Of a DNA stretch of 64,000 nt, positions 33,471-57,786 are shown piece by piece. Position 1 is the first letter of the stretch; each line of letters starts with the position of its first letter. Position numbers and translations under genes: made by a program. Source of the stretch: Haliotis rufescens (lineage: Eukaryota); NCBI RefSeq assembly GCF_023055435.1, contig NW_025963791.1, positions 7,440,001-7,504,000 of the forward strand, in the 5' to 3' direction. The notes below the pieces were generated by a model. It was not told the origin of the DNA. It was given only the letters and a program-made list of their open reading frames with translations, and made no database searches.

Positions 33471-33799
33471 CGATCGCCTCTGTTGTCTAGCGACAGAGCG
33501 TTCGCCCAGAGAACAGAAGGTCCGGGTTCGATCCCGGCAATATCATACCTAAAAACGTTAAAAGATAGTACTTGGTATCCTGGGTATTATGGGGCTAAAC
33601 CAAGGACTGGTCGTCTCGGAGTCAGTATGCTGTGTCTGAGTGGGGTAGTCATGTTACACTGATTCATGGTATCTCAATGAGCTAGCACTATAAAATCGGC
33701 ATCTGTCCTGACTAGTACAAGCACCCACGCGAGACAAACGTTGCTATATAGGTGCAACAATCTTAGAACCAGCATTAAACCCCATTTCACCTCACCTCA
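33471..33799 (+). mobile_element. tRNA-headed SINE family D (Meta-domain-like)
   Basis: B-box GGTTCGATCCC, core GTCAGTAT..TGTGTCTGAGTGGGGTA, (CACCT)n tail, 15-bp TSD ACTCAATCTGGCAAT. Confidence 0.85.
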
Positions 33800-34066: not shown

Positions 34067-36770
34067 TCATTGTAAGGAACAAATTCTTGACTTTCCACAC
34101 GTGTTGTTTGTAGTTTCTTCCGAATCCGCACGGAGTAGTGACTTCTTGTCATGACAATAAACGCATGCTTCTCCGACAGACTCATGAACCGTCGGTAACT
34201 TGTATGAATTGTCTTTACAACGTTCCATCTTTTCAAAGTCTGTAGCAAGACCACGCGTTCCTTGTTCCTCAGGGGCTTGTGACGTGTGTTCATCTCCGGG
34301 TGCTGTTTTAGACCTCGAAGACGTATTCAAAATTCTCTTTTCTTCGGAATGGTCGTGGGAATCGACTGGTTCTTCAAAATGCTTTAAGCCATTTGTCAGT
34401 TTCCTTTCTGAATTCAATTGTTCATAAACCGTCTCTAAGTCGTGTTCAACATGAACCTGAAGCCGTTCTTCCGTTTCAATCACGTTTTGGTGCAATGTAT
34501 TGAGGATAGACCGGTCGTGAGTCGTTCGTTCTGGTGACTGTTTTTGAACCCGACGTCGCTCTTTCATTGCAGTGGTTGGTTTTGCATTGCAGGTCTTCTT
34601 AATTATTTTCCTTACAAGGGTTGTTTTTGATGAGAGTGATGGTCGCACAAGCTCGCCGTTTTTGAATATGGGTGGTGGTAGAAGTTGCGAGAGGCTGTAG
34701 TTGTCAGCAGCCGTAGTGACGGCGTTGTAGATGGAGATGAGACAGTCACGAACGCTTGTGGAATGGTCACCACTGAGGAACAGTCTCGATGTCTGGCCCC
34801 ATGACCGGACGACTTCATCATGCAGTTTCCAAAGATTCTGAAGAGTTTCATAGACCCCTGTAACCTGTTGAAAATTACCAATTATTTTCATGTATTTATT
34901 AACTATCACATCACTATTTTAGAGTAACAACGCGTCAACATCTTTGGTACCAGATGAGATTTTTGTAAAATTTCAATTAAAGTATCTTCATCCAAAACCA
35001 CAGATCTGTATGGCCAACGCTAAAATGGTACTTAATACGTTTGCATGGATGGTTATAAATATATGGATTCTATATAGTTACAAAAATCATCACATTAAAA
35101 GATTGGTTGGTTGGTTTCTTGTTTAACGCCACACTCAGCAATATTCCAGCTGTATGGCGGCGGTCTGTAAAATAATCGAGCCTGGACCAGACAATCCAGT
35201 GATTGATATCATGAGCATCGATCCATATAATTGGGATCGATGACATGCACCAACCAAGTCAGCGAGCCTGACCACCCGATCCCGTTAGTCGCCTCTATAG
35301 TCTCATTTCACATCAAGCATGGGTTGCTGAAGACCTATTCTACCCCGGATTTTCAAGGGTGATAGCGAATTGTGACCCAGGGCTGACTTGGCTCCCTATG
35401 CCCACATCATAGTTATGAGAATCGTGAAATGGAACAGATCGATCATGATATTACATGTGTGACGTTGCTGAATCAAGTCATATACATAACAATAAGATAT
35501 AATAAGGTTGTAACGAACGACGAATTGTATGCATACAAAATTATAACGAACAGTTGTGCATGATCAATATCCACGCATTAAGTCACAACTGAGGTTTTCT
35601 CACCTTCACCTCGTGGAGAATGACATTCCTCAGTAGAAACAACCACATTCTCATGTCGTCAAATTCTTCTAAGATTTCATTACTGAACAAGTACTCCAAG
35701 TCTGAAGAGAATGAGTGAATTGAATGAATTGTTGGTTATCGCCGTTCTGTACAGTATTTCATCTATATCAGGGCGTGTAAGACAGTTATCACTTTGGTGA
35801 AATTACTAGAACGGTAAAACTGGACAAACCATGGATCATAATCGGGGCGAATTTGAGTTTCGATACAAAGATCAGTGGATCCTGGCACAACTAAGGAACA
35901 TAACTCTTCAGAACGTATTGCAGCGCCCGAGACAACTGCATGAACATGAACAGTTACAAGCACAGGCCATTTACAGAATATGTTCGATGTTATAAGTTGA
36001 GAAAGAATGCGCAATTCTTACTTCACCTTTGCCTAAGAATGAGTGTCTATAACCCAAAGCCATGTATAAAAGATAGTGATCTCATTGTAATATGCGAGCG
36101 AGTTTGGTTTTAAGCTGCTTTGAACTGTTTACAGTATTTCAGTTATATCACGGGGTGTCAGCTTGATGTGGGAGGAAGTGATGAAGGTATTAGACGTTTA
36201 ACACTTTGGTGAAGCCCCCGAGCACAGGTTTGGTGAGGACATATTTACCAATAAACATGATCAGGGAGAATCTGGGCATTGTAACTAAAGATAACAATTC
36301 ATATTGACTTGCAATGCAGCTGTCAGCATGAACACAGTGGCCTACTGTGTTTAGAGTCATTCAGTATAAATTCGTTAAAACGGGGAAGTAGTAACTCAAA
36401 CTCCATTACTATACGTATGGTTTAAGATACATCCGGATTCTATAGATACACCATGGTCTGCATCGACACTCCGCCTTTCTCGAAATACGGATAACTCGAA
36501 CCCTTTTAGAACTTCGTGGAAATGTTTGTCGTAAGATCCGACCGAAATGAGGATCGGGTTGTTATGATGCGGTATCGCTAATCACGGACAACGTGGAACG
36601 TTATTCAAACCGATTTGCTATTTTCAGACTACCGTCATTTGGTGAGAATATTGCTGACCGCGGTGCCGAAAGACAGTCACTCAAACTAACCAGATTACAA
36701 TGTCCAAACAAAACATCTTACCTTTTCTGTGTCTGGCGCCACGCAGCCAGTCTTCTCCACAGTATGTCAT
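34067..36770 (-). CDS. Uncharacterised 3-exon gene, 314 aa (orphan family X, copy 1)
   Basis: Exons 36770-36722 (49 nt), 35701-35604 (98 nt), 34864-34067 (798 nt); GT-AG, in frame. Homologous exon by exon to the 50862 gene. Ends CSLQ*. Confidence 0.72.
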
Positions 36771-37602
36771 ACTGGCCTACACGCAGGCATTGCACACATG
36801 CGTGTATGTACTCACTTCCCGGTTGATCAGTGCTCCGTGCCCAGGGCGACAGAGGCATGGCTTGTGAATGACGTGCATGTGTAAACTGTCAACCAGAATT
36901 CAATATTATCGATCCTACTGAACACTTTTCCAACAGCCGTAGAATGTACCCGTCTCCGTTTCATTATAATTTTACGTACAAAAATATACATTGTAATTAT
37001 AACACCATGTGAATAGTGTATCAAATACCTAATCAAACCAATATTTGTTTCCAGCGAGTATATCACACAACACGCCACAGTGACGCTGGTCGTTAAAGTC
37101 CCCAATATTGATTTGCAATAAGGGCACGCAGTGTATCACATATACCGTTTGTTTGAATGCATTAACACCGTCATTGTTCACCATCTTCTCCATATGTACT
37201 GAACATATCACAGAAACCTATGGTTGTGGGTTCGAATCCATGTACGCTCCGATTTTGTTTCTAGGTTTGTCAGCATCATACTCGTTCTCGTTGGTATTAT
37301 CAAAGTGGTTAACGTCTGAGACCTGCATCATTCGGGGTTTCCTCCCATGTTAATCTGACACGCCGTGCCGGAATGACACGAGTCAATTCGTCACCACCCG
37401 CCCCATTCGACCAACTCGTGTTATTCCGGGACAAGCAGGTTACGGAAAGGGGCGAGTGGTGACAAAAGCGACATCTACCGGCTAGACGTCGCTATGACGT
37501 CATTAGGCGATATTGTGACGTCACGCCATTGTCTGACATTGTCTCAGCTAGCTACAGCAGCACTGCAGTACGCTCTTCATTTATCGAGATTATCTAAGAA
37601 TT

Positions 37603-38866
37603 ATGCGAGACAACAGACATCTGACCGTGTCCGAGTGTGAGGGGTTTGATTCCGAGGTGGCAGAGTGTTTTTCACGTACAAAACCGACAGGTATGCGCCG
37701 TTATATATCATAACAGCATTACCCTTTTTGGAAACCATACAATCTGTTATAGATTTTTTGAAAGCTCTTGGAAATGTGCATTCGACAGTATCAGTAAAAT
37801 AAATAAAATTCACCAAAGCTATCACTTTATGGCCATTAGAAGCTATGTAACAAATCAAAATATTCGGTGATTTTCAAGTGTCTATCAGTAGGCCTTTATA
37901 CCTCAAGACCAATATCCAAAACCTCAAACAGTATGGTATCTGCGGAAAGAGCAGACCATGGGCAGTAATCTGAATACAAGGAAAGGCCTAATTGGGAAAT
38001 GGGACAAAGAGTAAAAAATAAAAATAAATAATAATTCACGCGCAGACATTGAACCTGACCGAAGTGTGCGCAGAACGTTCCAAATACATTGTTTAGATCC
38101 TTGTGGTATTACCTGTGACTCCATACTAGAAACTTGTAATCTGACCTATTTCAAGGGATTGATCCAAAAGGACCCAATTTCCAAACGTGCTTGTTGTAAC
38201 CCCCAGTTAATTGGATTGATTGGTTATATACCAAATTCGATTATTGCGTTTTCAGAGTTCCACGATTTGGCTCCCAAACACGTCACAATAAAACCAAGCC
38301 CTATTCGTCCCGAGCCACCATTCCAATGGGACTGTAGTAAAAAGGACAAACAACTTGGCAAAGAGTTCGAGCTCCACGTGCATCTTACGGCTGTCCTGGT
38401 TGAGGTGGACATTCTCCGGGCTGACCTGCGAGATGCACGACTCCGTTCCCAATGTCTGAAACTGAAGAACCAACATCTTCAGAGACAAGCCAGACAACTC
38501 TCGGAGGAGAAAGACTCCCTCAGGGAGCAGGTGGATCGCTTGATGAAAGAGGTGGACATGTTGAGTGTTGAAAGACTGTGTGTACATTCAGGAGAGGGAG
38601 AGGGTGTTGGACTTGTTCAGAGATCAGGGGCTACACAGACCACGTGCTTTGACCACATTATCCAATCAAAGAATGGAATGCCTCGTGAACAGGACAAAAG
38701 GTCAACAAGACATCATGAACTCTCTCAAAGTAGTCTGTCATCAAAGAAACATATGTCATCAAGCACAACCAATTTGATAGAAACTTGTAATCAGAAACAA
38801 AATGTACAAAAGTCCAAATCTTTCTTTGGTCGTTTTACAAAACTGTTCAGAAGGAACAAATCATAA
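37603..38866 (+). CDS. Uncharacterised coiled-coil protein, copy A (2 exons, 232 aa)
   Basis: Exons 37603-37690 and 38256-38866, phase-1 GT-AG intron; heptad-rich centre; basic amphipathic C-terminus KSFFGRFTKLFRRNKS. Confidence 0.7.
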
Positions 38867-41099
38867 TGTAATTCAATCCTTTTTAATGATGGTAATAACA
38901 ATTGTTTCAGTTCAAGAGCATTGTCTTCGTTATTTGTTAACAATGGTTGGTTTTCACTAGTTACAAGAGATCTGCCAACATGTATTGGACATGTGTTCCA
39001 TTAATTTTAACATATTGACATTGACACCATACAGTCATTCATTCAATCATGAGTAGGTTTTACGCCGCTTTTATATTCCAAGTTTTACGCCGCTTTTAGC
39101 AATAATCCAGCAATATCACAGCGGGGTACGCCAGAAATGGGCTTCACACATTGTACTCATGTGGGGAATCGAACCCGAGCCTTCGGCGTGACGATGCAAA
39201 CGCTTTAATCCACTGGGTTATCTCTATGGACAGTACTTTCGACTGGTTTGACTTGTGTTCGGCGCTATTCTCGCTGCGCTTTGCGACGCAACTCCTATCG
39301 GAGGATTGAAGAATGAAAAGCCGAATATCGTATCGAAGAATATACTAAAAGGGCTTCTGTTCTGCTAAAGGCATTGTTATTTATGCAGAAATAAAGATTA
39401 CCGTGCGTATTTTTTCGTAAACTAACCCGGAAATAACAATCAGCTGTACACACATTTCCTACCAGTCTACAGCGATGATTCGGTTAAAAGATGCCCAATA
39501 ATATAACTTCAAAGAAAAGTACATTCCTCCAGCAGTTGACATGTCATGGGCCAGTTTTCGGTCAGTTTGAAGAAAACTGCATACAAGGCTTTTGCTACAC
39601 GTGGTGTTGTAATGGATGGTCTTATTATATTATTATGCTGTATTATACTGTTATATTCTTTGTTCTGTTTTTCTTAATCACCTACAACTGTACAGTTATT
39701 ATTAATCAAGCGCGAACGCCTTAACCACTAGGCTAGTCATTTGAACCTAATGCATTCAGAACAAGAATACAATACAACATACAAGATATGTTCAACAACT
39801 TTAGATGATCCGAGCACTGTGGGGGCATACCATTAGTACTGGCCTTGGTGCCAGTTGAATTGATGCCCACACAAAACATATACATATATATCTTTCATAA
39901 ATAGTGGACAAAACTCTTTCCATAATCATAAGAAGGTTCTGCTGAAAGCAGAGTCCATTGTACGATTTCGAATGTATTATAAAAATGTATTTCTGAATCA
40001 CTAATAAATAGTGATGACACCAGATGATGGCGAAAAGGGGAGTATATCCTGCCTCACCGGTCACAAACACACACAAAGGCAAGTCAAGCGTTCTCCTGAA
40101 CAAAAACGGGAACATATTCATATGTTATCATAAGCTAAGTGAGAATTCTCCAGCCTATTGTATGGTGCTGACAAATCAAGAACCAACGACCAGAGAATTC
40201 TGTGTATGGTACGTCTAAGAAGGACGCATGTCTGCACAGCGTGTTGCCGCGCCCTAGACAACTGGTCCATCTGCTATAATCATGAACAGTGCATGTCGTA
40301 AAATACCAAGAAAAACGGTTGGAAATTTAAAAGAATAACTGGTCCATGTAATTTTTACTGTTTAAATTGAGACATGAAAGAGTGATTTGGAAGGATGTAA
40401 AAGTTTCCATATTTGAGTCACTCAGTGACGTGTATGGAACTAAGAAGTTTGAAGCGATGCTGAGTTTTCATCCTCACAAACGTTTATGAAAAAAAATTTT
40501 TTTATCTGACACGCCGCTATTTAACCGAAATTATGTTTAATGCGTCCTTAAAACCCAACTGAATCACTCATTTTACCTGTAACACAGAAGGGACTTTTCA
40601 ACCCTTAATGGGGTTTTTCAACACTTTCATCTGGCCTTGACCAAACTATTTCCCTGTTGCTTTCCTGCGCAAGCACATGTTTACAGATATAAATACAATT
40701 GTGAAATGCCACTGATAGCTCAAAATAAAAAAAAATCTCTTCCAGAAAAGAAATACATTTGAAAAAACACATGAAAATATCGCCAATTCCTTTTACAGCT
40801 TTTGGATTGATATTGTTAATAATGATTTGATCTAAGCCCATGATATTATACTAAAGAACAAAGAGCATCTCATGATCATGGTATGTTTCGGCTGTGTACC
40901 AATTGGAACACACTCAAGACGAAATATGCCGATATCTTCCGAAGGTATTTTCGCCGAACGGACAGCGACATCTACCGACTAGACGACACTATGACGTCAT
41001 TAGGCGATATTGTGACGTCACGCCATTGTCTGACATTGTCTCAGCTAGCTACAGCAGCACTGCAGTAGGCTCTTCATTTATCGAGATTATCGAAGCATT

Positions 41100-42929
41100 A
41101 TGCCAGTTACCAGACGTCTGACTGTGTCCGAGTGTGAGGGCTTTGATTCCGAGGTGGCGGAGTGTTTTTCACGTACAAAACCGACAGGTGTGTATGCCCT
41201 TATATATAATAACAGAGTTCAACTATACAACTTCAATTCTTTAAAACGAAAAGGATTTAAGAACCAACCACTTCATTTGCATCACTTCCTTAATTTTATG
41301 CCATAGTTGTATATATGACATCTGATTTACACTTGCCAGTTGGATTGATTCTATACTAAATCCGGTTATTGCTATTTCAGAGTTTCATGATTCGGTTCCC
41401 AAATACGTCACAATAAAACCAAGACCAGTCGCCAGGCGTCTGACCGTGTCCGAGTGTGAGGGGTTTGATTCCGAGGTGGCAGAGTGTTTTTCACGTACAG
41501 AACCGACAGGTATGTGCCGTTACATATCATAACAGCATTTGACTCTACAACTTTAATTATTTCAATTGAAAAAGTTTTCCGAATAAGCCACTTTATGTTT
41601 ACCATTTCCTTCATTTTATTCGGTAGATGTATATAATCTGCATGTCCAAGCCTGGTCCAAGCGTTTCCGACCATAATGCTTAGGGGCTGCTCAAGTTACC
41701 CTTTTTGGAAACCATACAATCACTTATAGATATATTGAAAGCTCTTGGAAATGTGCATTCGACAGTATCAGTAAAATAAATAAAAACCACCGAAATAATG
41801 ACTTTATAGCCATTAAAAGCTATGAAAAAATCAAAATATTCGGTTGGCTTTCCAATCTCATTAAAATCAGATCTTAGTTCTCACTACCGCTAAACAAAGC
41901 TTTGTTTAGCGGTAGTGAGAACTAAGGTCTGATTTTCAAGTGTCTATCAGTAGGCCTATATACCTCAAGACCAATATCAAAAACCTCTAACAATATGGTA
42001 TCTGCGGAAGGAGCAGACCATGGGCAGTAATCTGAATACAAGGGAAGGGCCAAGTGGGGAAATGGGACAAAGAGTAAAAAATAAAGATAAATAAAAATCC
42101 ACGCGCAGACATTGAACCTGGCCGAAGTGAGCGCACAACGTTCCAAATACATTGTTTAGATCCTTGTGGTATTACCTGTGACTCCATACTAGAAACTTGT
42201 AATTTGACCTATTTCAAGGGATTGATCCAAAAGGACCCGATTTCCAAACGTGCTTGTTGTAACCCCCGGTTAATTGGATTGATTGGTTATATACTAAATT
42301 CGATCATTGCGTTTTCAGAGTTCCACGATTTGGTTCCCAAACACGTCACAATAAAACCAAGCCCTATTCGTCCCGAACCACCATTCCAATGGGACTGTAG
42401 TAAAGAGGACAAACAACTTAGCCAAGAGCTAGAGCTCCACGTGCAGCTTACGTCTGTCCTGGTTGAGGTGGACATTCTCCGGGCTGACCTGCGAGATGCA
42501 CGACTCCGTTCCCAATGTCTGAAACTGAAGAACCAACATCTTCAGAGACAAGCCAGACAACTCTCGGAGGAGAAAGACTCCCTCAGGGAGCAGGTGGATC
42601 GCTTGATGAAAGAGGTGGACATGTTGAGAGCTGAAAGACTGTGTGTACATTCAGGAGAGGGAGAGGGTGTTGGACTTGTTCAGAGATCAGGGGCTACACA
42701 GACCACGTGCTTTGACCACATTATCCAATCAAAGAATGGAATGCCTCGTGAACAGGACAAAAGGTCAACAAGACATCATGAACTCTCTCAAAGTAGTCTG
42801 TCATCAAAGAAACATATGTCATCAAGCACAACCAATTTGATAGAAACTTGTAATCAGAAACAAAATGTACAAAAGTCCAAATCTTTCTTTGGTCGTTTTA
42901 CAAAACTGTTCAGAAGGAACAAATCATAA
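41100..42929 (+). CDS. Uncharacterised coiled-coil protein, copy B (3 exons, 275 aa)
   Basis: Exons 41100-41187, 41381-41509, 42319-42929; both introns phase 1; open frame. Confidence 0.7.
41853..41936. mobile_element. Collapsed MITE remnant forming a loop-less palindrome
   Basis: 37-bp arms 41863-41899/41900-41936 made of the TIR of the 9549 MITE family; absent from copies A and C. Confidence 0.85.
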
Positions 42930-45162
42930 TGTAATTCAATCCTTTTTAATGATGGTAATAACAATTGTTTCAGTTCAAGAGCATTGTCTTCGTTATTTGT
43001 TAACAATGGTTGGTTTTCACTAGTTACAAGAGATCTGCCAACATGTATTGGACATGTGTTCCATTAATTTTAACATATTGACATTGACACCATACAGTCA
43101 TTCATTCAATCATGAGTAGGTTTTACGCCGCTTTTATATTCCAAGTTTTACGCCGCTTTTAGCAATAATCCAGCAATATCACGACGGGGTACACCAGAAA
43201 TGGGCTTCACACATTGTACTCATGTGGGGAATCGAACCCGAGCCTTCGGCGTGACGATGCAAACGCTTTAATCCACTGGGTTATCTCTATGGACAGTACT
43301 TTCGACTGGTTTGACTTGTGTTCGGCGCTATTCTCGCTGCGCTTTGCGACGCAACTCCTATCGGAGGATTGAAGAATGAAAAGCCGAATATCGTATCGAA
43401 GAATATACTAAAAGGGCTTCTGTTCTGCTATAGGCATTGTTATTTATGCAGAAATAAAGATTACCGTGCGTATTTTTTCGTAAACTAACCCGGAAATAAC
43501 AATCAGCTGTACACACATTTCCTACCAGTCTACAGCGATGATTCGGTTAAAAGATGCCCAATAATATAACTTCAAAGAAAAGTACATTCCTCCAGCAGTT
43601 GACATGTCATGGGCCAGTTTTCGGTCAGTTTGAAGAAAACTGCATACAAGGCTTTTGCTACACGTGGTGTTGTAATGGATGGTCTTATTATATTATTATG
43701 CTGTATTATACTGTTATATTCTTTGTTCTGTTTTTCTTAATCACCTACAACTGTACAGTTATTATTAATCAAGCGCGAACGCCTTAACCACTAGGCTAGT
43801 CATTTGAACCTAATGCATTCAGAACAAGAATACAATACAACATACAAGATTTGTTCAACAACTTTAGATGATCCGAGCACTGTGGGGGCATACCATTAGT
43901 ACTGGCCTTGGTGCCAGTTGAATTGATGCCCACACAAAACATATACATATATATCTTTCATAAATAGTGGACAAAACTCTTTCCATAATCATAAGAAGGT
44001 TCTGCTGAAAGCAGAGTCCATTGTACGATTTCGAATGTATTATAAAAATGTATTTCTGAATCACTAATAAATAGTGATGACACCAGATGATGGCGAAAAG
44101 GGGAGTATATCCTGCCTCACCGGTCACAAACACACACAAAGGCAAGTCAAGCGTTCTCCTGAACAAAAACGGGAACATATTCATATGTTATCATAAGCTA
44201 AGTGAGAATTCTCCAGCCTATTGTATGGTGCTGACAAATCAAGAACCAACGACCAGAGAATTCTGTGTATGGTACGTCTAAGAAGGACGCATGTCTGCAC
44301 AGCGTGTTGCCGCGCCCTAGACAACTGGTCCATCTGCTATAATCATGAACAGTGCATGTCGTAAAATACCAAGAAAAACGGTTGGAAATTTAAAAGAATA
44401 ACTGGTCCATGTAATTTTTACTGTTTAAATTGAGACATGAAAGAGTGATTTGGAAGGATGTAAAAGTTTCCATATTTGAGTCACTCAGTGACGTGTATGG
44501 AACTAAGAAGTTTGAAGCGATGCTGAGTTTTCATCCTCAAAAACGTTTATGAAAAAAAAATTTTTTATCTGACACGCCGCTATTTAACCGAAATTATGTT
44601 AAATGCGTCCTTAAAACCCAACTGAATCACTCATTTTACCTGTAACACAGAAGGGACTTTTCAACCCTTAATGAGTTTTTTCAACACTTTCATCTGGCCT
44701 TGACCAAACTATTTCCCTGTTGCTTTCCTGCGCAAGCACATGTATACAGATATAAATACAATTGTGAAATGCCACTGATAGCACAAAATTAAAAAAAATC
44801 TCTTCCAGAAAAGAAATACATTTGAAAAAACACATGAAAATATCGCCAATTCCTTTTACAGCTTTTGGATTGATATTGTTAATAATGATTTGATCTAAGC
44901 CCATGATATTATACCAAAGAACAAAGAGCATCTAATGATCATGGTATGTTTCGGCTGTGTACCAATTGGAACACACTCAAGACGAAATATGCCGATATCT
45001 TCCGAAGGTATTTTCGCCGAACGGACAGCGACATCTACCGACTAGACGACACTATGACGTCATTAGGCGATATTGTGACGTCACGCCATTGTCTGACATT
45101 GTCTCAGCTAGCTACAGCAGCACTGCAGTACACTCTTCATTTATCGAGATTATCGAAGCATT

Positions 45163-46763
45163 ATGCCAGTCACCAGACGTCTGAACGTGTCCGAGTGTGA
45201 GGGCTTTGATTCCGAAGTGGCGGAGTGTTTTTCACGTACAAAACCGACAGGTGTGTATGCCCTTATATATAATAACAGAGTTCAACTCTACAACTTCAAT
45301 TCTTTAAAACGAAAAGGATTTAAGAACCAACCACTTTATTTGCATCACTTCCTTAACTTTATGCCATAGATGTATATATGACATCTGATTTACACTTTCC
45401 AGTTGGATTGATTCTATACTAAATCCGGTTATTGCTATTTCAGAGTTTCATGATTCGGTTCCCAAATACGTCACAATAAAACCAAGACCAGTCGCCAGGC
45501 GTCTGACCGTGTCCGAGTGTGAGGGGTTTGATTCCGAGGTGGCAGAGTGTTTTTCACGTACAGAACCGACAGGTATGTGCCGTTACATATCATAACAGCA
45601 TTCGACTCTACAACTTTAATTATTTCAATTGAAAAAGTTTTCCGAATAAGCCGTTTGAGCCGGGTTCAAATGTGCACGCGACAGTATCAGTAAAATAAAT
45701 AAAATTCACCAAAGTTACCACTTTATAGCCATTAGAAGCTATGTAACAAATCAAAATATTCGGTGATTTTCAAGTGTCTCTTAGTAGGCCTTTATACCTC
45801 TAGACCAATATCCAAAACCTCTAACAGTACCGTATCTGGGGAAAGAGCAGACCATGGGCAGTAATCAGAATACAAGGGAAAGGCCTAGTTGGGAAATGGG
45901 ACAAAGAGTAAAAAATAAAAATTAAAAATAATTCACGCGCTGACATTGAACCTGACCGAAGTGTGCGCAGAACGTTCCAAATACATTGTTTAGATCCTTG
46001 TGGTATTACCTGTGACTCCATACTAGAAACTTGTAATTTGACCTATTTCAAGGGATTGATCCGAAAGGACCCTATTTCCAAATGTGCTTGTTGTAACCCC
46101 CGGTTAATTGGATTGATTGATTATATACTAAATTCGATTATTGCGTTTTCAGAGTTCCACAATTTGGTTCCCAAACACGTCACAATAAAACCAAGCCCTA
46201 TTCGTCCCGAGCCACCATTCCAATGGGACTGTAGTAAAGAGGACAAACAACTTGGCAAAGAGCTCGAGCTCCACGTGCAGCTTACGGCTGTCCTGGTTGA
46301 TGTGGACATTCTCCGGGCTGACCTACGAGATGCACGACTCCGTTCCCAATGTCTGAAACTGAAGAACCAACATCTTCAGAGACAAGCCAGACAACTCTCG
46401 GAGGAGAAAGTCTCCCTCAGGGAGCAGGTGGATCGCTTGGTGAAGGAGAGGGACATGTTGAGAGCTGAAAGACTGTGTGTACATTCAGGAGAGGGAGAGG
46501 GTGTTGGACTTGTCCAGAGGTCAGGAGCTACACAGACCACGAGCTTTGACCACATTGTCCAGTCAAAAAATGGAATGCCTCGTGAACAAGACAATAGGTC
46601 AACAAGACATCATGAACTCTCTCAAAGTAGTCTGTCATCAAAGAAACATATGTCATCAAGCACAACCAATTTAATAGAAACTTGTAGTCAGAAACAAAAT
46701 GTACAAAAGTCAAATTCTTTCTTTCGTCGTTTTGCAAAACTGATCAGAAGAAACAAATCATAA
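45163..46763 (+). CDS. Uncharacterised coiled-coil protein, copy C (3 exons, 275 aa)
   Basis: Exons 45163-45250, 45444-45572, 46153-46763; open frame despite many substitutions. Confidence 0.7.
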
Positions 46764-47725
46764 TGTAATTCAGTCCTTTTTAATGATGGTAATAACAATT
46801 GTTTCAGTTCAAGAGCATTGTCTTCGTTATTTGTTAACAATGGTTGGTTTTCACTAGTTACAAGATATCTGTCAACATGTATTGGACATGTGTTCCATTG
46901 ATTTTAACATATTGACATTGACTCCATACAGTCATTCATTCAATCATGAGTAGGTTTTACGCCGCTTTTAAAATTTAGCAATAATCCAGCAATATCACGA
47001 CGGGGTACACCAGAAATGGGCTTCACACATTGTACTCATGTGGGGAATCGAACCCGAGCCTTCGGCGTGACAAAGCAAACGCTTTAATCCACTGGGTTAT
47101 CTCTATGGACAGTACTTTCGACTGGTTTGACTTGTGTTCGGCGCTATTAACCACTAGGCTACTCATTTGAACCAACTCGTGTTATACCGGGACAAGCCGA
47201 ATAGCGACTCGTGCCCCTCTCGTGGCCATTTTTTCCGACTGGGTTCAGTCTGAGCGTAAACGGGCATAGCTGAAAGAATTGTCAACTCGTTGCGTAAGGA
47301 TACACGTCATTCGTGACCAACTCGTTTTATTCTGGGACAAGTGGAAAGTGAGTTTCCAAAGGGGCGAGTGGTATCTGATGATGTAAATTTTACTGCAAAT
47401 ATTAAACCGGTTTGAAAACAAGACACTGCTAACTGTTGTCTGAGAATGTATTCTGCCGATAAAAGTACTGTGCGACAATGTTTTTAGTAAGCAGCTTTAC
47501 GGAAACTGTGAGCGAACACAATGCTGCCCAATACCTGAACGACATAAATGTATAAAAAATGGATTTATATGCTTATGTATAACGTTATGCATTCGATACC
47601 AAAAAAAATAACGTGCCTTATATGACGAAAACTGATTTTCCTCGATGACGTCAAAAGATGACAGAGGTTACACACGTACACATAAAAGGGTCATAACTCC
47701 GCTATTCTTGGGTGCGCGAAATACG

Positions 47726-47864
47726 TGTAGCAGGTTATGGAGTCATCCCGCCCCTACTTGAGGGGTTAGCCTCTTTGGTCATGTCGACAAGACGTCCGAC
47801 CTCTGATCATCAGGTCCGTAGTTCGAATCCCATCACGGGACTCGGAAATATTATGGCCGCTACA
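47726..47864 (+). mobile_element. Solo LTR of the tRNA-containing TRIM (internally shortened)
   Basis: TGTAGCAG...GCCGCTACA, 139 bp, B-box GTTCGAATCCC, TSD TACG on both sides. Confidence 0.88.
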
Positions 47865-48110
47865 TACGCATATGTCGGAATGTGCACGTTTTTGTGTTTT
47901 GTTAAAGAGGAACCAAACTATTCCAACACAAATATCGATATTGAAACTGCATACATTTAGGTATATAAAAAACATAAGAAATTATGAAATCGTACTTTAT
48001 AAAAAAAGAAGTAATAGCGAAATGGATGGCCCTATCTAACCTACTAATTAGTCCTCAGACTCCAACATTCCCCTGATGGTGCAAGTGTAATTTGACATAT
48101 GTTGCACCAT

Positions 48111-48872
48111 TTAAAATGGGGCACTGGCCTTTTCATTAAATGTAATGAATTACTGAAAAAAATGACACCATTTTATTTGACGTCGTGGCCAAGTTTTACG
48201 TCTTTGACAACGTCGGAGAAAGACGACATTGGTATTTTGATTAATATATATCGCCCCTACATTTCGTTCGCGGTATGGAAAATGTCGATGAGTAAAACGG
48301 AATTTGATGCTTTTTCGACGCATAAAATGACTGCTTTTACCATGAAAATAATGTCTTGAATAAATGAAGCATTAGATTGTTTACCATGTATTTTAATTGG
48401 ACAAGATACGCACCTGTTTGGCATAAATCTTACGTATCAAATACCCAAAATAATATTTCGAAACAAACAAAATCATCTTCAATATTGGACATGTCTTTGT
48501 TCATGATTATGTGATTATTTCTGGGTATCTCATCTCAGAATGATACAATAAAAGGATGCGAAGAAAGCTCCTTTGGTACAGAATTATCAGGATAATCGTA
48601 TAAGGTTCGGCCAACGGGGTACATGTCACTTTTTTCATATATCTTATACTTTTTACAATTCTTGGAGAAAATGAAATCGTTTGTGACTATAACGCGCACA
48701 ATGCGAATCGTTAGACATCACCGTTCTATCAAGCGACATAAAAAAAACAATTCCAAGCCCAAGACAATTCTTCTAAAAATCTGTGCATATATTTTAACAA
48801 AAATATAACCAATTTGTTAAATTAATGTATTCAGTTTTAGTTTTAAAATAAAATGAAACGGCTAGTCATTAA
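48111..48872. mobile_element. Possible decayed TTAA-flanked DNA transposon (Kolobok-like)
   Basis: Degenerate TIR ACT(G/A)GCC(T/G)TTTCATT near TTAA at both ends. Confidence 0.35.
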
Positions 48873-51800
48873 CCTGTTTATATGGAATTACCATAATTGA
48901 CTATGACACTCCAAAGTAATAAGTACATGTGTCATTTCACCTTCTAACACCTGTCTAAAGGGAAGAAATATCGAATACAACCCAATAAACTTCTTATGTA
49001 AACAGTGTTCAAACAAACACTAGATTATCAGAGGTTTATACATTTTGCGGCCTATATCTACGTATATCAAACTGAACATTGACAAATATCCATGGTGGAA
49101 TTAACTGAAATGTATAAAATATATGCAAAATCTACATCATAATAGAAACTTTAAACAACAGGATACAATGAACTTGTGTACTTTCATTCAACATGTTCCA
49201 GGACCTTCACCTCAAGGAAATTACGTACACATATGTACAACAAAGTTGACGTATGACATCACTACCGGTCACCGACTTTAATAAAATCGCGTGTTCACTG
49301 ACAACACTAGGCGGGATTTAACGAGGGGACATTCGTTGATTCAGGGACTGTTAATGCATATAACTGTGACATTAAGTAATCAGAAACATTCTGACAATCT
49401 GTGTACTGTTATTTATTTTATGTTTTTCATTGAAACCAAGAGGAATAGTCGAGATTCCGATAAATACCGTTGTCGTTGTGCGTGTTTTGCGTCAGTCATG
49501 ACGTCACGTCGTGCGGTGGATGGAAACTTTGACAATTTCTGTTGAATTTACCAAGTCATTGCAATGTATCTACATGTATTTTTTAATTCCCTAATTCTTG
49601 CTACGATTCTCTCCCCATGCATATTCTGAAAATGTTGAGCTAATGTATGCAACGGATAGACGAATGGATATATTCCAGCTCAAAATAGGAGAAAATGCTA
49701 CACAGTGTAAAATATGACTTTTGCTTTGTTTACATTTCAAACAAGTGCAGTTTTCCGACCGCAGCGTTCATTTTCACACCTAATTTATATTTCATGGTTT
49801 CATCTAGACACTCTTAAGGTGACAAAGATCATTTGTCATTTGATTCTAAAATGTATGAGGAACTCAAGGATGTATGTATCGCAGCTGAGTTTGAAATATA
49901 CGTGATGTTTTAGGCGTCTCATTACCGGCATACGTGAAACGTGATTATGTGAACACTATCCAATATGGCGGAAAGTTCACTTCGGCGTTCGTGTTTGCGT
50001 ATTTTCGAAAAAACATTCTAAACGATTCTTGGGTTATCGTCAACGTTTTAGAAGGATCCTTGGTGGTTTGCTAAAAGACAGATACCCGTGATCACTGATA
50101 TGCTATTTGTAAAATTCATTTCTCTGAGTAAATATCCGAAATTTAGATTTCGAAACATGCTGTAAATAACACCGTGAATGGTGATTTAGCAATGTGTAAA
50201 CAATGGCGACATTTACGATGTACCCAATTTTCAGTACTTTTGCTTTGCCTAGAATGACAGTGGATGAGATCATAGAACAGGGAATTTACCACAGAATTAA
50301 AAACTATGTCGTGTATTTGTGTGCATGGTGTATGTTGAATTGTATTCGCCTTCAAAGTGAGGGTTGAAGAGGTGGGACATCTCTGGCATCCAGGGTGGGG
50401 ATAGTTCCCCCATTTATCGTATATATTCCAAATGCTATTGAAAACACATCGGAACTTTCAGTATTATACAGTATGATTGGCCACATTTAACTGTATCTTG
50501 GGCATATTTTTAAAAGAAACACATATGTTAAATCAAAAATTATTCCTGAGGGATTCTTTGACCGAAGTACTTGAAGTCATACGCGCATTCTGATTGTATG
50601 TATTTTCGCACATTACGTTCATCGATAGGGGGACGAGTCTTCTTGCAGGTTACGGAAAGGGGCGAGTGGTGGCGAATGCACCCGCCCCTTTCCGTGAACG
50701 CCATTCGTTCCGGACTGGCCCGAGTGATCACGACACATATACCGCTACTATGACGTCACAGAAACATGACGTCATAGACAGTCAATATGACAGCTTGATT
50801 GACTTGTAAATACGTCGCGTCACGTATCTCTACTATTTGTCACGTCCGACAACGCTCCTAAATGCCTGTTTGTAAGAAAGTCAACTCGGGCGTGGCACCG
50901 CCTCGGTCAGGTAAGATGAATGTCATGATTTTAGTCTTTATTCATCAAGGGGACAATTATGTAAATGTAAAATCTAAGTATGTTTTTTGTTAAAACCTAT
51001 TTCATTCAGAAGTAACAGATTCGTAATAGCTATCGAAATACATAGTATGTAGTATACTTGATTCTAAAAGAATATTATCATATATCCACTGTTTGCCCTT
51101 TCCATCACCCACACCCCATTACCAGTTAAAACAATATGCATATGTGTCAAATTATTTTAGTTTTGTTATATTTATCGTCACCCTAAGATTGTATAAGTTC
51201 AACATTACGTATGAGACGTCATACAGTTTCTAGTTATTCCGGGTTAGGAAACTACATTACGTGATGTACCGATTAATCAAACTCTCAATACATCACAATA
51301 GTCCACTTCCCGATGACAAATTAAAACATAAATATACTTCTGGAAAAAAAGGAAGCATACCCCCATGTTTGATGGCGGCTAAAAATAAAACAAACAAGAA
51401 ATGGTTATTCGATGAAGATGTATTTGATAGAGGGATCATATGCTACATCACTTGCATCATGTCAATAAGTCTCTTACAACAGGTCATCAAAATAACGTAT
51501 TTCTTTACGTTTGTAATTTTATGGTCAAACATATTTTTTAAATGCACACTTTGTTTTGCTAGGCAAATTCATTAACGTCGCTGCTGCGCAACAATATCGA
51601 TAGTATGGACAGACGGAATAACATGAAAAGAAAAAAAACTTTCATTCGTTTACTTTTAATTTCGTTTCGAGCCAAAGGACACTTTGCTTTAAGAGACTCG
51701 TGGGTATCCGTCCAGCAATGATAACTCACTACTTAACGTCCCAAGCTAGGTCTTTAGTATGTTTGTTTGTTGTTTAACGCCGCACTCAGCAATATCCGAG

Positions 51801-51915
51801 CTAGATATCGACGATCTGTAAATAATCGAGACTGGGCTAGATAATTATACCACGCAACTGACATACGATGACATGCAATCAACCAGGCCTGACCCTATCC
51901 ATAAAGTCGCCTCTT

Positions 51916-53326
51916 ACGACCAGCATAGGTTTCTGGGGACCTATATTCTTACCTGGAATCCCCACGTTGTATACGACCAGCATAGGTTGCTGGGGACCTT
52001 TATTCTTACCTGAAATCCCCACGTTGCATACGACCAGTATAGGTTGCTGGGGACCTATATTCTTACCTGGAATCCAAACGTTGTATACGACCAGAATAGG
52101 TTGCTGGGGACCTATATTCTTACCTGGAATCTCGACGTTACGACCAGGATAGGTTGCTGGGGGCTTGTATTCTTACCTGGAATCCCCACGTTGTATACGA
52201 CCAGCATAGGTTGCTGGGGACCTATATTCTTACCTGGAATCCCCACGTTGCATACGACCAGTATAGGTTGCAGGGGACCTATATTCTTACCTGGAATCCC
52301 CACGTTACGACCAGCATAGGTTGCTGGGGACCTATATTCTTACCTGGAATCCCCACGTTGTATACGACCAGTATAGGTTGCAGGGGACCTATATTCTTAC
52401 CTGGAATCCCCACGTTGTATACGACCAGTATAGGTTGCTGGGGACCTATATTCTTACCTGGAATCCCCACGTTACGACCAGCATAGGTTGCTGGGGACCT
52501 ATATTCTTACCTGGAATCCCCACGTTGTATACGACCAGTATAGGTTGCTGGGGACCTATATTCTTACCTGGAATCCCCACGTTACGACCAGCATAGGTTG
52601 CTGGGGGCTTGTATTCTTACCTGGAATCCCCACGTTACGACCAGCATAGGTTGCAGGGGACCTATATTCTTACCTGGAATCCCCACGTTGTATACGACCA
52701 GTATAGGTTGCTGGGGACCTATATTCTTACCTGGAATCCCCACGTTACGACCAGTATAGGTTGCTGGGGACCTATATTCTTACCTGGAATCCCCACGTTA
52801 CGTCCAGCATAGGTTGCAGGGGACCTATATTCTTACCTGGAATCCCCACGTTACGACCAGCATAGGTTGCTGGGGACTTATATTCTTACCTGGAATCCCC
52901 ACGTTACGACCAGTATAGGTTGCAGGGGACCTATATTCTTACCTGGAATCCCCACGTTACGACCAGCATAGGTTGCAGGGGACCTATATTCTTACCTGGA
53001 ATCCCCACGTTACGACCAGCATAGGTTGCTGGGGACTTATATTCTTACCTGGAATCCCCACGTTACGACCAGTATAGGTTGCAGGGGACCTATATTCTTA
53101 CCTGGAATCCCCACGTTACGACCAGCATAGGTTGCAGGGGACCTATATTCTTACCTGGAATCCCCACGTTACGACCAGCATAGGTTGCTGGGGACTTATA
53201 TTCTTACCTGGAATCCCCACGTTACGACCAGCATAGGTTGCAGGGGACCTATATTCTTACCTGGAATCCCCACGTTACGACCAGCATAGGTTGCTGGGAA
53301 CCTTTATTCTTACCTGGAATCCCCAC
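51916..53326. repeat. 53/57-bp satellite amplified from the end of a family-B SINE
   Basis: About 26 units of ACGACCAGCATAGGTTGCTGGGGACCTATATTCTTACCTGGAATCCCCACGTT(GTAT), contiguous with the SINE at 51759. Confidence 0.95.
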
Positions 53327-54241
53327 TTAACCCCAATCAATAGGGGTGAATCTAGAGGTTATGTCATATGTGAGATTTTGCCATCGTATCTAATATTGCC
53401 TGGACTCTATACTGAGAGCAATACATAGAGGTACTTACTTACAAACTATGGCAATACTATTTCAACCGTAAAATACCCTCAATATACGCCCCCATTGAAT
53501 TGGTCCCTTGTCCCACAATTTCAGTCCGGACTGAAGGAAGTCCGAATTTGTGACGTTTCACTTACTGTTCATGTGTTTCGGTATCGAGTGGGCACTATAT
53601 CAGTTGGTGTTTGAGTGAGGTGTGGGCAGTGGATGGTGTTAAAAAGTGGATCTAATATTGTTTTAGTGTTATGTATGAAAACGCTTCAGTTTGAATCATC
53701 AGATTGTTCTTAGCGTGTATTCCTCATGACCTGATGTATAACATGAGAGATTGGTCGTGGTAATCAGTTGTATTTTCCTTCCAGCGTCCCAGAGCGAGGC
53801 AAGTCATGAGCTCCAATGGAAGATTTGTACCCTGCGCCTGTGGCTGGACAAGATCAAGTCTTCAGCAATCTCGGAAGAAAAAGGTCTATTATACGTTAAA
53901 AATACCCTTCTTAAAATAGTATTTGGGCACGTATGGCCCTGTGCAATTCACAATGCGGTGTTAAGCTTCAGAGACTTTATAGTCTATATTTGTATCAACG
54001 CCGTACTCAGCAATAGTCATATGACCGCGGCCTTTAAATAATCGCAGCTTCACCGGACAAACCAGTGATAGATATTACTGCAACGACTCACGCCGTCGGG
54101 GTAGATGACTCGCAATGTCACCGAGTCTGACCAGCCAATCGCCCCCAACGACAAATATAAAATACTGGATACCTATTCCCAACGTGGGCCATCATTATCC
54201 TTAAGCAGTGTGTAAAGTAAATATAAGTTACAATTTCCTGT

Positions 54242-54594
54242 GGTCCGCCTCCATGGCCTAATGGTAAAGCGTCCGCCCGGAGAGCGGAAGGTCCGAGGTT
54301 CGATCCCTGGCCGCGTCATACCAAAAGACGTTAAAAGATGGTACTTGTTGTTACCCTGTCAGGCGCTCGGTATTAAGGGGCTAAAACAAGGACTGTTCGG
54401 CTCGGGGTCAGTATACTGTGTCTGAGTGGGGTATTCGTGTTAAACTGCGGCATGGTATCTCAGTGTTTTAGCACTATAAATCGGCATTAGTCCGGACTAG
54501 TACAAGCAGCCACGCACACATACACGTGCATGCACGGCGCTATATAAGTGCAATAATCTTGGACGCGACGTTAAACCCCATTTCACCTCACCTC
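54242..54594 (+). mobile_element. SINE family D, full length
   Basis: A-box TGGCCTAATGG, B-box GGTTCGATCCC, TSD ACAAT(T/A)TCCTGT. Another copy at ~59540-59870. Confidence 0.88.
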
Positions 54595-55423
54595 ACAATA
54601 TCCTGTTTTAATATGTGAATAGAATCTGTATTTTCCTATTCCAGGTAGCGATCAATGTTATTGAGAGAAAGAGGTTCTTTCTTCTGAGAAGAGAGATCGA
54701 TCGCTGCAACGACCTCCTGACCAAACTCTGCTTCCTCACAGATCGTTCTTCCACGGTCCTCAGGTCCCTCTATAATATACACAGAATCGTCCACAAGGTT
54801 GCTCGGGTACTCCAAGTGTCACAGCACCTCCCGCCGCCACTCGTCATGCAAGGAAGGTTCCTCCCACCACCAGGAAAACTTCCTCAGTCGAGTTTACAAA
54901 CGCTGTAGTCTGACACGTCGGAACGCGACGATCCAGAACGAAGAAGAAACGAAGTCAAATAATCACGAAACGTTACTAGCAATAATACGTGAGAAAAGGG
55001 CACCAGAGAAACCAAACAGGATGTTATTATACTCGCCACAGAGATATATTAGCCAGGCTTAAAGACAGCCATGGAAGTCAGATCCACACCAAAAGTCTCC
55101 TCCATGCCTGCCAACTGTCCGATGTACAGGAAGATGAACTGCTTGAACAGAATGACCGGTCAACCTGCTCCTTCGGACCTTGTAATTCTACTGAGCTTGT
55201 TCTATCAGAACAGCGTTCGTTTCATGAGCTTTTGGCTGTCAAATAATCCAGCTGTGAACGTGATGCCCCTTCTGAAGAAGTTATATTCAAATTAGAAAAT
55301 GTAGCAGACACATCATCGGGTGGCAACATTGCTGGTGAATCATCTGGCCCTGATCCTAGACCAGTGAGGTCGTCCAGGGCAACACTACCACCATTACAGA
55401 TTTCCTCAAGGTCGACCGTTTCG

Positions 55424-55729
55424 AGCGGAACAGTGTCAAGGCATCTAGGTTCAGGTTGTCATGAACTTGATGCACTTGGATCTACATCTGCACTACCACC
55501 ACTTTGTGTATCTCCAGTTCTAGCTAGCGGAACAGTGTCAAGGCATCTAGGTTCAGGTTGTCATGAACTTGATGCACTTGGATCTACATCTGCACTACCA
55601 CCACTTTGTGTATCTCCAGTTCTAGCTAGCGGAACAGTGTCAAGGCATCTAGGTTCAGGTTGTCATGAACTTGATGCACTTGGATCTACATCTGCACTAC
55701 CACCACTTTGTGTATCTCCAGTTCTAGCT
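55424..55729 (+). repeat. Three perfect 102-bp (34-codon) tandem repeats
   Basis: Units start at 55424, 55526 and 55628; frame-preserving. Confidence 0.97.
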
Positions 55730-56654
55730 CCACTAAAAGTATCACCAAGGTCGACAGCAAAACAAAGTATTGTCACAACATCGTCAGACAGCCCAACACG
55801 TGGAACCTCTGAAGCTGATTCAAAGCCAATGAGATCTCCTATAAGGGTCACCCCACAGTGGTCCTCCCATGATCTACTTACTGTCGAAATAACATGTGGA
55901 AACGATACCGCCTCGGACACAGTTATGTCACAATTGGAGATTACACCGGCCAATACAACCCCAGATTGTCAGGATACAGTTTCCGCTGAAACTGGTCCAA
56001 AGCCGGTGAGATCTCCCAGGAGAACCGCACTACCACCACTAAAGATTTCTCCACGGTCGACAGGAAAACCAAGCATACCTGCGGTCAAAGAAGTAGAAAC
56101 AGACATAGCCTCTAAGCTGGAGACTCTTGTGAGACTAGGGTCTCTATATGCCCTCCCGCCAATCAAGGCGTCCAAGTCATTTACCAATGATGGCAACGAT
56201 ACTACCAGCGACCCCATCAGCCCCTACGCTCAGTCAGAGAATGCGCTAGAGAAATCTGACAATGGATCAATGGCTGCTTCTCCCTCCGATGACCTTTCAT
56301 CTCAGATGTCACCTTTTCACATCTGCCACTGTTCCGTATCAGTGGTTTCCAGCAGACTGGACACACCAAAGAAATCCATTTTCGTCCGTGCCTGGAGTCG
56401 CCTACGAAACTTCTTCTGTATCAAGAAGGTGGCACCTCTGTAGACTAGCACGCTGAATAACACCATAATATCCCAACCTCTACAAGGAGCACAGTGCACG
56501 GATGGGCCTACGGCAACATCACATGGCACCCTGCGAGTGAGTGAGTTGTGTTTAACGTTGCTTTTAACAGTATTCCTGTCATATCGCGGCGTGTCAGCTT
56601 AATGTGGGAGGAAAGCCCCAAGTGATGCAGGTCTTAGACGTTTACCACTTCGGC

Positions 56655-57786
56655 TGATTCTGACGTCGTCTATCACTTCTGTCCAAAGAGTCCCACAAAG
56701 AGGCCAAGGCATAAAATTCACGTGGTTAGTCTGCAGGAAGTCCCGTGAGATGCGTGCGGTGTGACTTGCATTGGCGTTGTCTTGCATTGGCGTTGAGGTA
56801 AGGGACAACATGCTGAGCAAGAATCTCGTCTCTGTAGCGCATCGCTTTCAGATTTCGACGAATAGGAACAAGAGCTGTACGATGACCGTGTGCAATTCCA
56901 GCCCATACCATTACAAATCCAGCTCCTCCAAAACGATCTCTCTCAGGAACACAAGCGTCAGCATAACGTTCATTCATCCGTCTGTACACCCGATGTCTGG
57001 AGACATCTGGAGTTTGGAGAGTGAACAACAGGATCATCACTGAAGAGCAATTCCTGCCATTCACGTGGAGTCCAGCGCAGATGCTCACGAGTCCACTCTC
57101 GACATTGACGTCAATGACGTTGGGTAAGAACTTGCCCAGCGTATGGCCCCTTGGCTCCCAGACCATATTGTCGCAGCCGATTGCGAACAGTTTGAGCACT
57201 GATTCTGTTGTTATGAGTTCCTTGAGTGGTCTGTGCAGTAACAGTTGCTGGGAAAAAACGATTGCGTAAATGTTGCGTCACAATACAGCGGTCTTGAACT
57301 GGTGTTGTTACACGTCCACTTCTCGGACCATCATTGGTTACCCCAGTTGCATTGTAACGCTTCCTCAGACGTTGTACTGACCTCGCGGACGCACCAACTT
57401 GTAATGCAACATCTGCAGTACGCATGCCTGAGTGCAACATTCCGATGGCTCTGTCACGAACATAATTTGGGGATTCTTGGCATTTATTTTAAAGGTAAAC
57501 GTGGGGAAAAGAATGTAATTACGGTGTTTTCTCGTGTGTTCTAACGATTGCCTTCAGTGATAACCAGTAACTCAAACATTCACGCACACAACATGTTACA
57601 CGTGCGACGATCGTGTGTTTTGCATGTTTTTAGGATTGTGGTTGTAACGTTTCATAATGCTCAGTTAACTGTGCGGGCTTGATACCCGAACACGCTTGTC
57701 TTATCTATCAATAATGTTATCGCAGAAAAATATGGTTCAGTTGAGTCATTTTAAAAAATCGTACGTTTCTTTTTTGGTTCAATATA
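56655..57786 (-). mobile_element. Decayed Tc1-like transposon (frameshifted transposase, 3' end lost)
   Basis: HTH region with PRSGR linker (57111-57440); VMVWAGI (56726-57199); QDNA..HTAR..PWP (56599-56820); TIR-like TTGAACCAAAAAAAGAAACG beside a TA run near 57786. Confidence 0.9.

What the first reader, a model, noticed from the sequence alone, without database searches (positions are those of the whole stretch)
34067..54908. Hidden orphan gene family: two very diverged paralogues with matching exon architecture
Seen: the minus gene (36770-34067) and plus gene (50862 onward) both have a 49-nt first coding exon ending G|GTAAGATG, a 33-codon second exon (SNEI..MRMWL..EVK versus SHEL..LRLWL..EEK), and a third exon that aligns without gaps for ~75 aa (LFLSGDHSTSVRDCLISIYNAVTTAADNYSLSQLLPPPIFKNG versus LCFLTDRSSTVLRSLYNIHRIVHKVARVLQVSQHLPPPLVMQG). 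The ORF track shows none of this linkage. I recognise no family. Inference: a ~120-aa helical domain plus disordered tail, rapidly evolving and lineage-restricted.
Basis: partly seen in the sequence, partly recalled or inferred. Interest (0 to 1): 0.75.

Follow-up and report, generated by a model that had tools for sequence, protein, structure and literature searches.

The report
Abalone three-helix gene pair, one broken
Two very different-looking neighbouring abalone genes are old copies of one undescribed family predicted to make small three-helix proteins that likely dock on membranes inside the cell; one copy is intact and already annotated, the other carries four breaks here and is likely a recent pseudogene, so this is a real but fairly ordinary case of gene birth and death.

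Summary
The paralogy is real. The spliced minus gene (49+98+798 nt, 314 aa) is letter for letter NCBI's uncharacterized Haliotis rufescens LOC124151767, with orthologues in H. rubra and H. asinina. The plus gene is the orthologue of H. rubra LOC124284100 (566 aa). The two H. rubra proteins align without gaps from Met1 (33 of 124 identical; 0 of 10,000 shuffles reach the score).

Against H. rubra it has three frame changes and one nonsense codon. The 54908 stop is premature and the homologous end is 56443.

A profile search of 1.84 billion proteins found five family members plus one repeat artefact; two members are unnamed. All named members are Haliotis. No Pfam, PDB or viral family matched. 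AlphaFold gives a generic three-helix bundle ending in LPPP.

There is no signal peptide or membrane-spanning segment. Basic amphipathic helices, a terminal VxPx (2 of 6 proteins) and docking-like repeats suggest an intracellular peripheral-membrane adaptor (inferred). Splicing and tissue were not confirmed. Verdict: an undescribed lineage-restricted family undergoing gene birth and death; modest interest.

The parts
36722..36770 (-). Minus gene coding exon 1 (49 nt, phase-1 donor GTAAGA)
   Evidence: spliced model equals P0005
35604..35701 (-). Minus gene exon 2 (98 nt; predicted helix 1; phase-0 donor GTGAGA)
34067..34864 (-). Minus gene exon 3 (798 nt): predicted helices 2-3, LPPP motif, basic helix, polar tail, stop
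50751..50774 (+). Paired TGACGTCA palindromes 88 nt before the plus-gene ATG; possible promoter element (inferred)
50862..50910 (+). Plus gene coding exon 1 (49 nt, donor GTAAGA); 9 of 16 residues identical to H. rubra P0008
53785..53883 (+). Plus gene exon 2; 99 nt to the first GT (weak GTCTAT), one base longer than the register of P0008 (break 1, in an A-run); 23 of 32 identical to P0008
54645..54880 (+). Plus gene exon 3, bundle part (predicted helices 2-3 and LPPP); 51 of 78 identical to P0008; second AG acceptor at 54649
54878..54908 (+). Break 2: frame change (about 8 bases missing relative to P0008, inferred from the protein alignment), giving the premature TAG ending at 54908
55025..55035 (+). 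Break 3: frame change (one extra base relative to P0008)
55244..55246 (+). Break 4: in-frame TAA where P0008 has Glu
55247..56443 (+). Rest of the plus-gene tail: 398 open codons, Ser/Pro-rich, repeated LPP[LI]x[VI]S motifs, a perfect 3x102-nt internal repeat (55424-55729), a C-terminal basic amphipathic helix and terminal VxPx; 205 of 308 aligned residues identical to P0008

Best explanation
The two genes are old paralogues of an undescribed family so far named only from abalone, predicted to fold into an antiparallel three-helix bundle ending in LPPP and likely working as intracellular adaptors that sit on membranes through basic amphipathic helices; the minus copy has an intact reading frame, while the plus copy carries four breaks in this sequence and is likely a recent pseudogene or null allele. 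Shown: paralogy, shared intron register, the intact minus ORF with orthologues in three species, domain-over-tail conservation in the minus gene, and the four breaks. Predicted: the three-helix fold. Inferred: the conserved bundle is a protein-binding module; the Arg/Lys-rich amphipathic helices after LPPP and at the C-terminus of P0008, P0009 and P0010 bind anionic membrane; and the plus-type tail recruits a proline-directed kinase through repeated docking-like motifs. Odds by step: paralogy 0.97; plus copy non-functional in this haplotype 0.75; peripheral-membrane adaptor 0.4; ciliary or germ-cell role 0.2.
Confidence: 0.5

Rival explanations
1. The plus gene is functional in the species: the breaks are assembly errors or a rare null haplotype, and most animals make a protein like the 566-aa H. 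rubra one.
For: The tail is still 67% identical to P0008 and 398 codons stay open after the last break, so any loss is recent. Break 1 lies in an A-run.
Against: There are four separate breaks, including a nonsense substitution and a roughly 8-base loss that are not homopolymer-type errors. No H. rufescens-named protein of 154 aa or longer with this domain was returned (1 hit among 31 candidates), although annotations of the same assembly would share its errors.
Confidence: 0.2
2. The plus gene survives as a short bundle-only protein (135 or 152 aa) through alternative splice sites, and acts as a tail-less competitor of its relatives.
For: Donor 53883 to acceptor 54649, and donor 53930 (CAC|GTATGG) to acceptor 54645, both keep the frame through LPPP. 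The domain frame has no internal stop.
Against: The plus domain is no better conserved than its broken tail (p=0.83) and is less conserved than the minus domain (p=0.023). Proteins of 48-152 aa were not searched with P0002.
Confidence: 0.12
3. The family is a diverged branch of a known three-helix-bundle family (spectrin-repeat, BAG, GAT or syntaxin-Habc type; names recalled) that has lost detectable sequence similarity.
Against: De novo designed bundles score as high or higher; identities are 13% or less in the top ten rows. No Pfam hit reaches its cut-off for any of the six members, PDB profile best E 0.68, Foldseek best E 0.77.
Confidence: 0.12
4. The similarity is chance between two unrelated helical proteins, or the genes are transposon-derived.
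For: Pairwise BLASTP of the two exon-3 products is weak (E 0.006, 25%). The window is rich in mobile elements.
Against: Leave-one-out profiles are significant at database scale, P0009 bridges the two types (50-52% to minus-type, 30% to P0008), and the intron register is shared. No transposon domain matched; viral fold best E 0.2.
Confidence: 0.03

Closest known systems
NCBI uncharacterized proteins LOC124151767 (H. rufescens), LOC124284130 and LOC124284100 (H. rubra), and an H. asinina uncharacterized protein
   Same: The minus product is identical to LOC124151767; the plus gene is 56-72% identical by region to LOC124284100. Both H. rubra proteins list the same longest-contig length (3,617,278) and close locus numbers, so they are probably neighbours there too (inferred).
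   Different: These records carry no precomputed Pfam domain in the listings; the three locus ids occur in 0 papers of the library searched. The plus gene is intact in H. rubra and broken here.
Abalone lysin/sp18 acrosomal family (PMC9022041; abstract and passages seen)
   Same: An abalone tandem family of very divergent paralogues with shared exon boundaries and one inverted member. That these proteins are helical is recalled, not from a call.
   Different: Lysin and sp18 have signal peptides, and lysin has five exons according to the passages; this family has three coding exons, no hydrophobic leader and no sequence match.
Generic antiparallel three-helix bundles (EzrA spectrin-like repeats, DOCK2 bundle, myosin VI lever-arm extension, designed bundles)
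   Different: No sequence signal; single copy; followed by LPPP, a short hairpin and basic helices.
VxPx ciliary targeting signal of rhodopsin (PMC10538646; passages seen) and MAPK D-motifs/KIMs (PMC13655128; passages seen)
   Same: Terminal VxPx in P0008, P0009 and the broken plus tail; repeats in the plus-type tail fit (K/R)1-2-X2-6-hydrophobic-X-hydrophobic.
   Different: VxPx is described there for an integral membrane cargo, and these proteins have no transmembrane segment. Both motifs are short, degenerate and absent from the minus-type tails.

Membership tests
Taxonomically restricted gene family | No detectable homologue outside one lineage | tested here: inconclusive
   4 of 4 named members are Haliotis. 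HMMER over 1,835,955,588 representatives gave 6 hits: three of those, P0009 and P0010 of unknown organism, and one repeat artefact. The origin of P0009 and P0010 could not be looked up.
Taxonomically restricted gene family | Real protein-coding genes (open frame and constraint across species) | tested here: met
   Minus gene open in three species, with the domain better conserved than the tail, p=0.0004 and 0.0003. Plus type intact in H. rubra only.
Duplicated (unprocessed) pseudogene, plus copy | Disabling breaks with introns retained and an intact orthologue | tested here: met
   Three frame changes and one nonsense codon against P0008.
Duplicated (unprocessed) pseudogene, plus copy | Breaks fixed in the species and no functional product | tested here: inconclusive
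   The one read lay did not cover the breaks usefully.
Abalone lysin/sp18 acrosomal proteins | N-terminal signal peptide | tested here: not met
   Hydropathy screen only, no SignalP: best 8-residue mean in residues 1-30 is 0.41-0.75 in five proteins and 1.75 in P0008.
Abalone lysin/sp18 acrosomal proteins | Sequence match to the family profile, and lysin's five-exon layout | tested here: not met
   No such Pfam or PDB hit at E up to 1 and up to 5; three coding exons here.
Abalone lysin/sp18 acrosomal proteins | Lysin fold | tested here: inconclusive
   Not among the rows shown; an unlisted family is not excluded.
Spectrin-repeat / BAG / GAT-type three-helix bundles | Antiparallel three-helix topology | tested here: inconclusive
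Spectrin-repeat / BAG / GAT-type three-helix bundles | Family sequence signature (Pfam) | tested here: not met
Transposon- or virus-derived gene | Transposase, gag, pol or viral domain | tested here: not met
   No Pfam hit for the family, while the same library detects the real elements in the window. The viral fold search was uninformative (best E 0.2).
VxPx ciliary cargo | C-terminal VxPx | tested here: inconclusive
   Present in 2 of 6 intact proteins (P0008, P0009) and the broken plus tail; absent from P0005, P0006, P0007 and P0010.
VxPx ciliary cargo | Arf4-dependent delivery to cilia | not testable with these tools
   Needs localisation experiments.
MAPK D-motif scaffold | Basic-X2-6-hydrophobic-X-hydrophobic motif in a disordered region | tested here: met
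   A related pattern, set after seeing the sequences, occurs 5 times each in the P0008 and P0003 tails and 0 times in the other five family tails and in P0004; consensus from PMC13655128 passages.
MAPK D-motif scaffold | Binding to a MAPK docking groove | not tested
   No complex prediction or assay was run.

The most novel reading that the evidence does not exclude
An abalone-specific family of membrane-docked signalling scaffolds: a three-helix head plus amphipathic anchors, VxPx-targeted to cilia or sperm flagella, with the plus type carrying an array of MAPK docking motifs. The locus would act as a gene nursery: the three unrelated coiled-coil genes between the paralogues share the plus gene's upstream segment, paired CRE-like sites and C-terminal amphipathic anchor, and may be replacing it as it dies in this lineage.
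Probability: 0.08. Interest if true: 0.6.

Novelty: new member of a known kind. Interest (0 to 1): 0.28.

Why it matters
It defines a small protein family with no Pfam model that predates the split between H. rufescens and H. rubra. PMC13544226 (passages seen) calibrates H. iris-H. rubra at more than 84.9 Ma and estimates H. iris-H. rufescens at 39.9 Ma, so the duplication is old (inferred). One paralogue has since been disabled in this lineage. If the genes prove gonad-specific, a loss that differs between abalone species would bear on reproductive divergence in a classic model for it. Without expression or function data, it is one more lineage-restricted family with a generic fold.

Tried and rejected
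No whole genome is held for this window, so copies elsewhere in the genome could not be counted. Within the window, a six-protein profile finds only five pieces among 2801 (minus exons 1-3, plus exons 2-3), so there is no third paralogue.

Sequencing runs (query 34067-36800): no RNA holder listed. 18 of 24 rows hold part of the stretch, but none is on record as RNA, and none was laid on the minus gene.

The single lay (53400-55420; runs X1, X15, X6, X10; 4 of the 24 listed) was swamped by a dispersed repeat at 54245-54596. The three guessed-RNA runs showed no cover of the plus exons, X15 showed patchy cover, and no exon junction appeared among the rows shown. This is no evidence either way.

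Cluster-member look-ups could not be made, so the organisms behind P0009 and P0010 are unknown.

P0011 (E 4.2e-5) was dropped before alignment A5: it is a tandem-repeat protein matching only about 22 residues.

ESM Atlas: no usable feature hit for P0005 residues 1-127 or P0010; structure rows TM 0.35 or less on a low-confidence model. Metagenome contigs: 598 pattern matches, none confirmed. PDB sequence profile: 4 rows, best E 0.68, rejected. Foldseek PDB and viral libraries: 0 matches at E up to 0.001.

The tandem coiled-coil genes are not members of the family (profile E above 1e8 for P0004; pairwise scores within shuffles). The minus tail does not align significantly with the plus tail pieces tested. 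Paired TGACGTCA sites (6 matches, 0 in 100 shuffles) are weak support for a promoter role: three are recent copies of each other, two lie in a sulfamidase intron, and the minus gene has none.

Papers: the three locus ids are in 0 papers. Searches listed 4, 4 and 3 papers; I saw listings and abstract starts only, apart from passages of PMC9022041 and PMC13544226, and none of what I saw describes this family. Two .doc supplementary tables of PMC9022041 could not be read and its zip was not opened; they could list these proteins. Earlier scan findings: nothing.
Full report
1. Observation. Both genes have a 49-nt first coding exon ending G|GTAAGATG. The minus model (36770-36722, 35701-35604, 34864-34067) translates to 314 aa. 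It is identical to stored protein P0005, which the source names uncharacterized protein LOC124151767 of Haliotis rufescens. That search returned 3 proteins among 17 candidates; the other two are from H. rubra (P0006) and H. asinina (P0007). Between the two window genes, exon 3 gives 20 of 75 identities ungapped and score 67, reached by 0 of 5000 shuffles. Exon 2 is weaker (9 of 5000) and exon 1 is not significant (914 of 5000). Plain BLASTP of the exon-3 products gives only E 0.006.

2. The plus gene is broken. A search with its exon-3 product returned 1 protein among 31 candidates of 154-2000 aa: H. rubra LOC124284100, 566 aa (P0008). tblastn of P0008 runs from exon 2 to 56440 over three frames and one stop. 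The orthologous splice gives 55 aa; two alternative site pairs give 135 and 152 aa and keep the bundle. Identity to P0008 is flat: 83 of 126 in the domain and 285 of 426 in the tail (p=0.83). The minus gene keeps 100 of 126 in the domain against 63 of 110 in the tail (p=0.0004). A tail still 67% identical, with 398 open codons, points to a recent loss (inferred). Whether the breaks are fixed, polymorphic or partly assembly errors was not resolved.

3. The family. The intact H. rubra pair aligns without gaps from Met1 to Pro124 (33 of 124; score 137, shuffle maximum 66 in 10,000), with the window's exon junctions mapping to residue 17 and residues 49/50 in both. A five-row profile against 1,835,955,588 representatives gave 6 hits: P0005, P0006, P0008, two further members P0009 (195 aa, E 1.7e-43) and P0010 (200 aa, E 1.6e-14) from unnamed records, and P0011, dropped as a repeat artefact. 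The word-indexed profile search returned only the four input proteins among 8000 scored candidates. Leave-one-out profiles recover P0008 at E 1.7e-6 and 1.7e-13, so the link is not circular. P0009 is 50-52% identical to the minus type and 30% to P0008. The tree has one well-supported branch (the minus orthologues) and leaves the placement of the long branches P0008 and P0010 open. Invariant columns include E25, R34, W36, L37, L79, L91, V98, A102, LPPP 111-114 and P124.

5. How it most likely works. None of the 6 proteins has a transmembrane stretch, and none has a clear hydrophobic leader by a hydropathy screen, so they are probably intracellular. After LPPP, five of six carry a helix-like 11-mer of net charge +4. 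P0008, P0009 and P0010 end in a basic amphipathic segment in the top 0.5-3.2% of their windows; P0008 and P0009 terminate in VxPx. VxPx is the C-terminal ciliary signal of rhodopsin (PMC10538646, passages). The plus-type tail repeats LP[PA][LI]x[VIM]S four times in P0008 and five times in the window's broken tail (three from a perfect 102-nt repeat). Several copies have basic residues upstream and fit the KIM/D-motif consensus (PMC13655128, passages). I therefore infer a peripheral-membrane adaptor: the bundle binds a partner, the basic helices anchor it, and the tails tune location and kinase recruitment. Against this: the intact minus type lacks the C-terminal helix, VxPx and the repeats; the patterns were set after seeing the sequences; and S/T-P sites are not clearly enriched. 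No binding, localisation or expression was shown.

6. Surroundings. A sulfamidase-like gene lies to the left (Pfam SGSH_C, E 5.6e-13), an LTR retrotransposon at 1383-6949 and a broken Tc1-like transposase at 56729-57488. Between the paralogues are three recent tandem genes (92-98% DNA identity) with open 232-275-aa spliced models, a probable coiled coil (inferred from weak Pfam rows) and a C-terminal amphipathic helix. They do not match the family profile. The first of them shares a 35-nt upstream segment with the plus gene, and all three, like the plus gene, have paired TGACGTCA sites 80-88 nt before the ATG.

7. Comparison and novelty. The arrangement resembles the abalone lysin/sp18 array (divergent tandem paralogues, shared exon boundaries, one inverted; PMC9022041, abstract and passages), but the leader, exon-number and sequence tests are not met. 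The three locus ids appear in 0 papers of the library searched, which lacks most subscription journals. The genes are thus catalogued but uncharacterised, and I found no description of their relationship. This is a new member of a known kind: a lineage-restricted family evolving by birth and death.

8. Verdict. Observation partly confirmed; interpretation partly supported; interest 0.28. The most novel reading (a ciliary or flagellar kinase scaffold family in a gene-nursery locus) has probability about 0.08 and would merit 0.6.

Noticed in passing
window 37603-38866, 41100-42929, 45163-46763 (+): Three recent tandem genes (92-98% DNA identity) with open spliced models of 232, 275 and 275 aa, a probable coiled coil and a basic amphipathic C-terminus. 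Copies 2 and 3 have an extra exon that fuses the start of the last exon to a copy of exon 1. No Pfam family at cut-off; not searched against the large databases.
   Followed up: partly
window 37435-37469, 47361-47371 and 50645-50679 (+): A 35-nt segment is shared upstream of the first tandem gene and the plus gene (91% identity); an 11-nt core of it recurs at 47361 with no gene model tested there.
   Followed up: partly
window 26506-26553, 37495, 40992, 45055, 50751: Paired TGACGTCA palindromes: 6 matches, none in 100 shuffles. Four lie 80-88 nt before predicted ATGs; two lie in an intron of the sulfamidase-like gene.
   Followed up: partly
window about 25965-31617 (+): Multi-exon N-sulphoglucosamine sulphohydrolase-like gene (last exon Pfam SGSH_C, E 5.6e-13).
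   Followed up: partly
window 1383-6949 (-): LTR retrotransposon with open gag-like (PNMA, zinc knuckle) and 1509-codon pol frames (protease, RT, RNase H, integrase); repeats at about 620-760 and 8410-8546 may be its LTRs.
   Followed up: partly
window 56729-57488 (-): Tc1/mariner-like transposase in two frames, just downstream of the plus gene's true end.
   Followed up: partly
window 54245-54596; related copies near 33497-33799 and 59549-59869: Very high-copy dispersed repeat in plus-gene intron 2; more than 100,000 contigs of one DNA-sized run were laid on this stretch, nearly all on the repeat.
   Followed up: no
window 51914-53326, 14696-15592, 21962-22816: Long minisatellites (53-, 17- and 27-nt units); the first fills half of plus-gene intron 1.
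   Followed up: no
window 41863-41936: 74-nt near-perfect palindrome inside the intron of tandem copy 2, with related arms at 9549-12248.
   Followed up: no
P0005 residues about 166-237 (window about 34520-34300, -): About 72 residues of the minus tail are absent from the H. rubra and H. asinina orthologues: a lineage-specific in-frame insertion here, or a deletion there.
   Followed up: no
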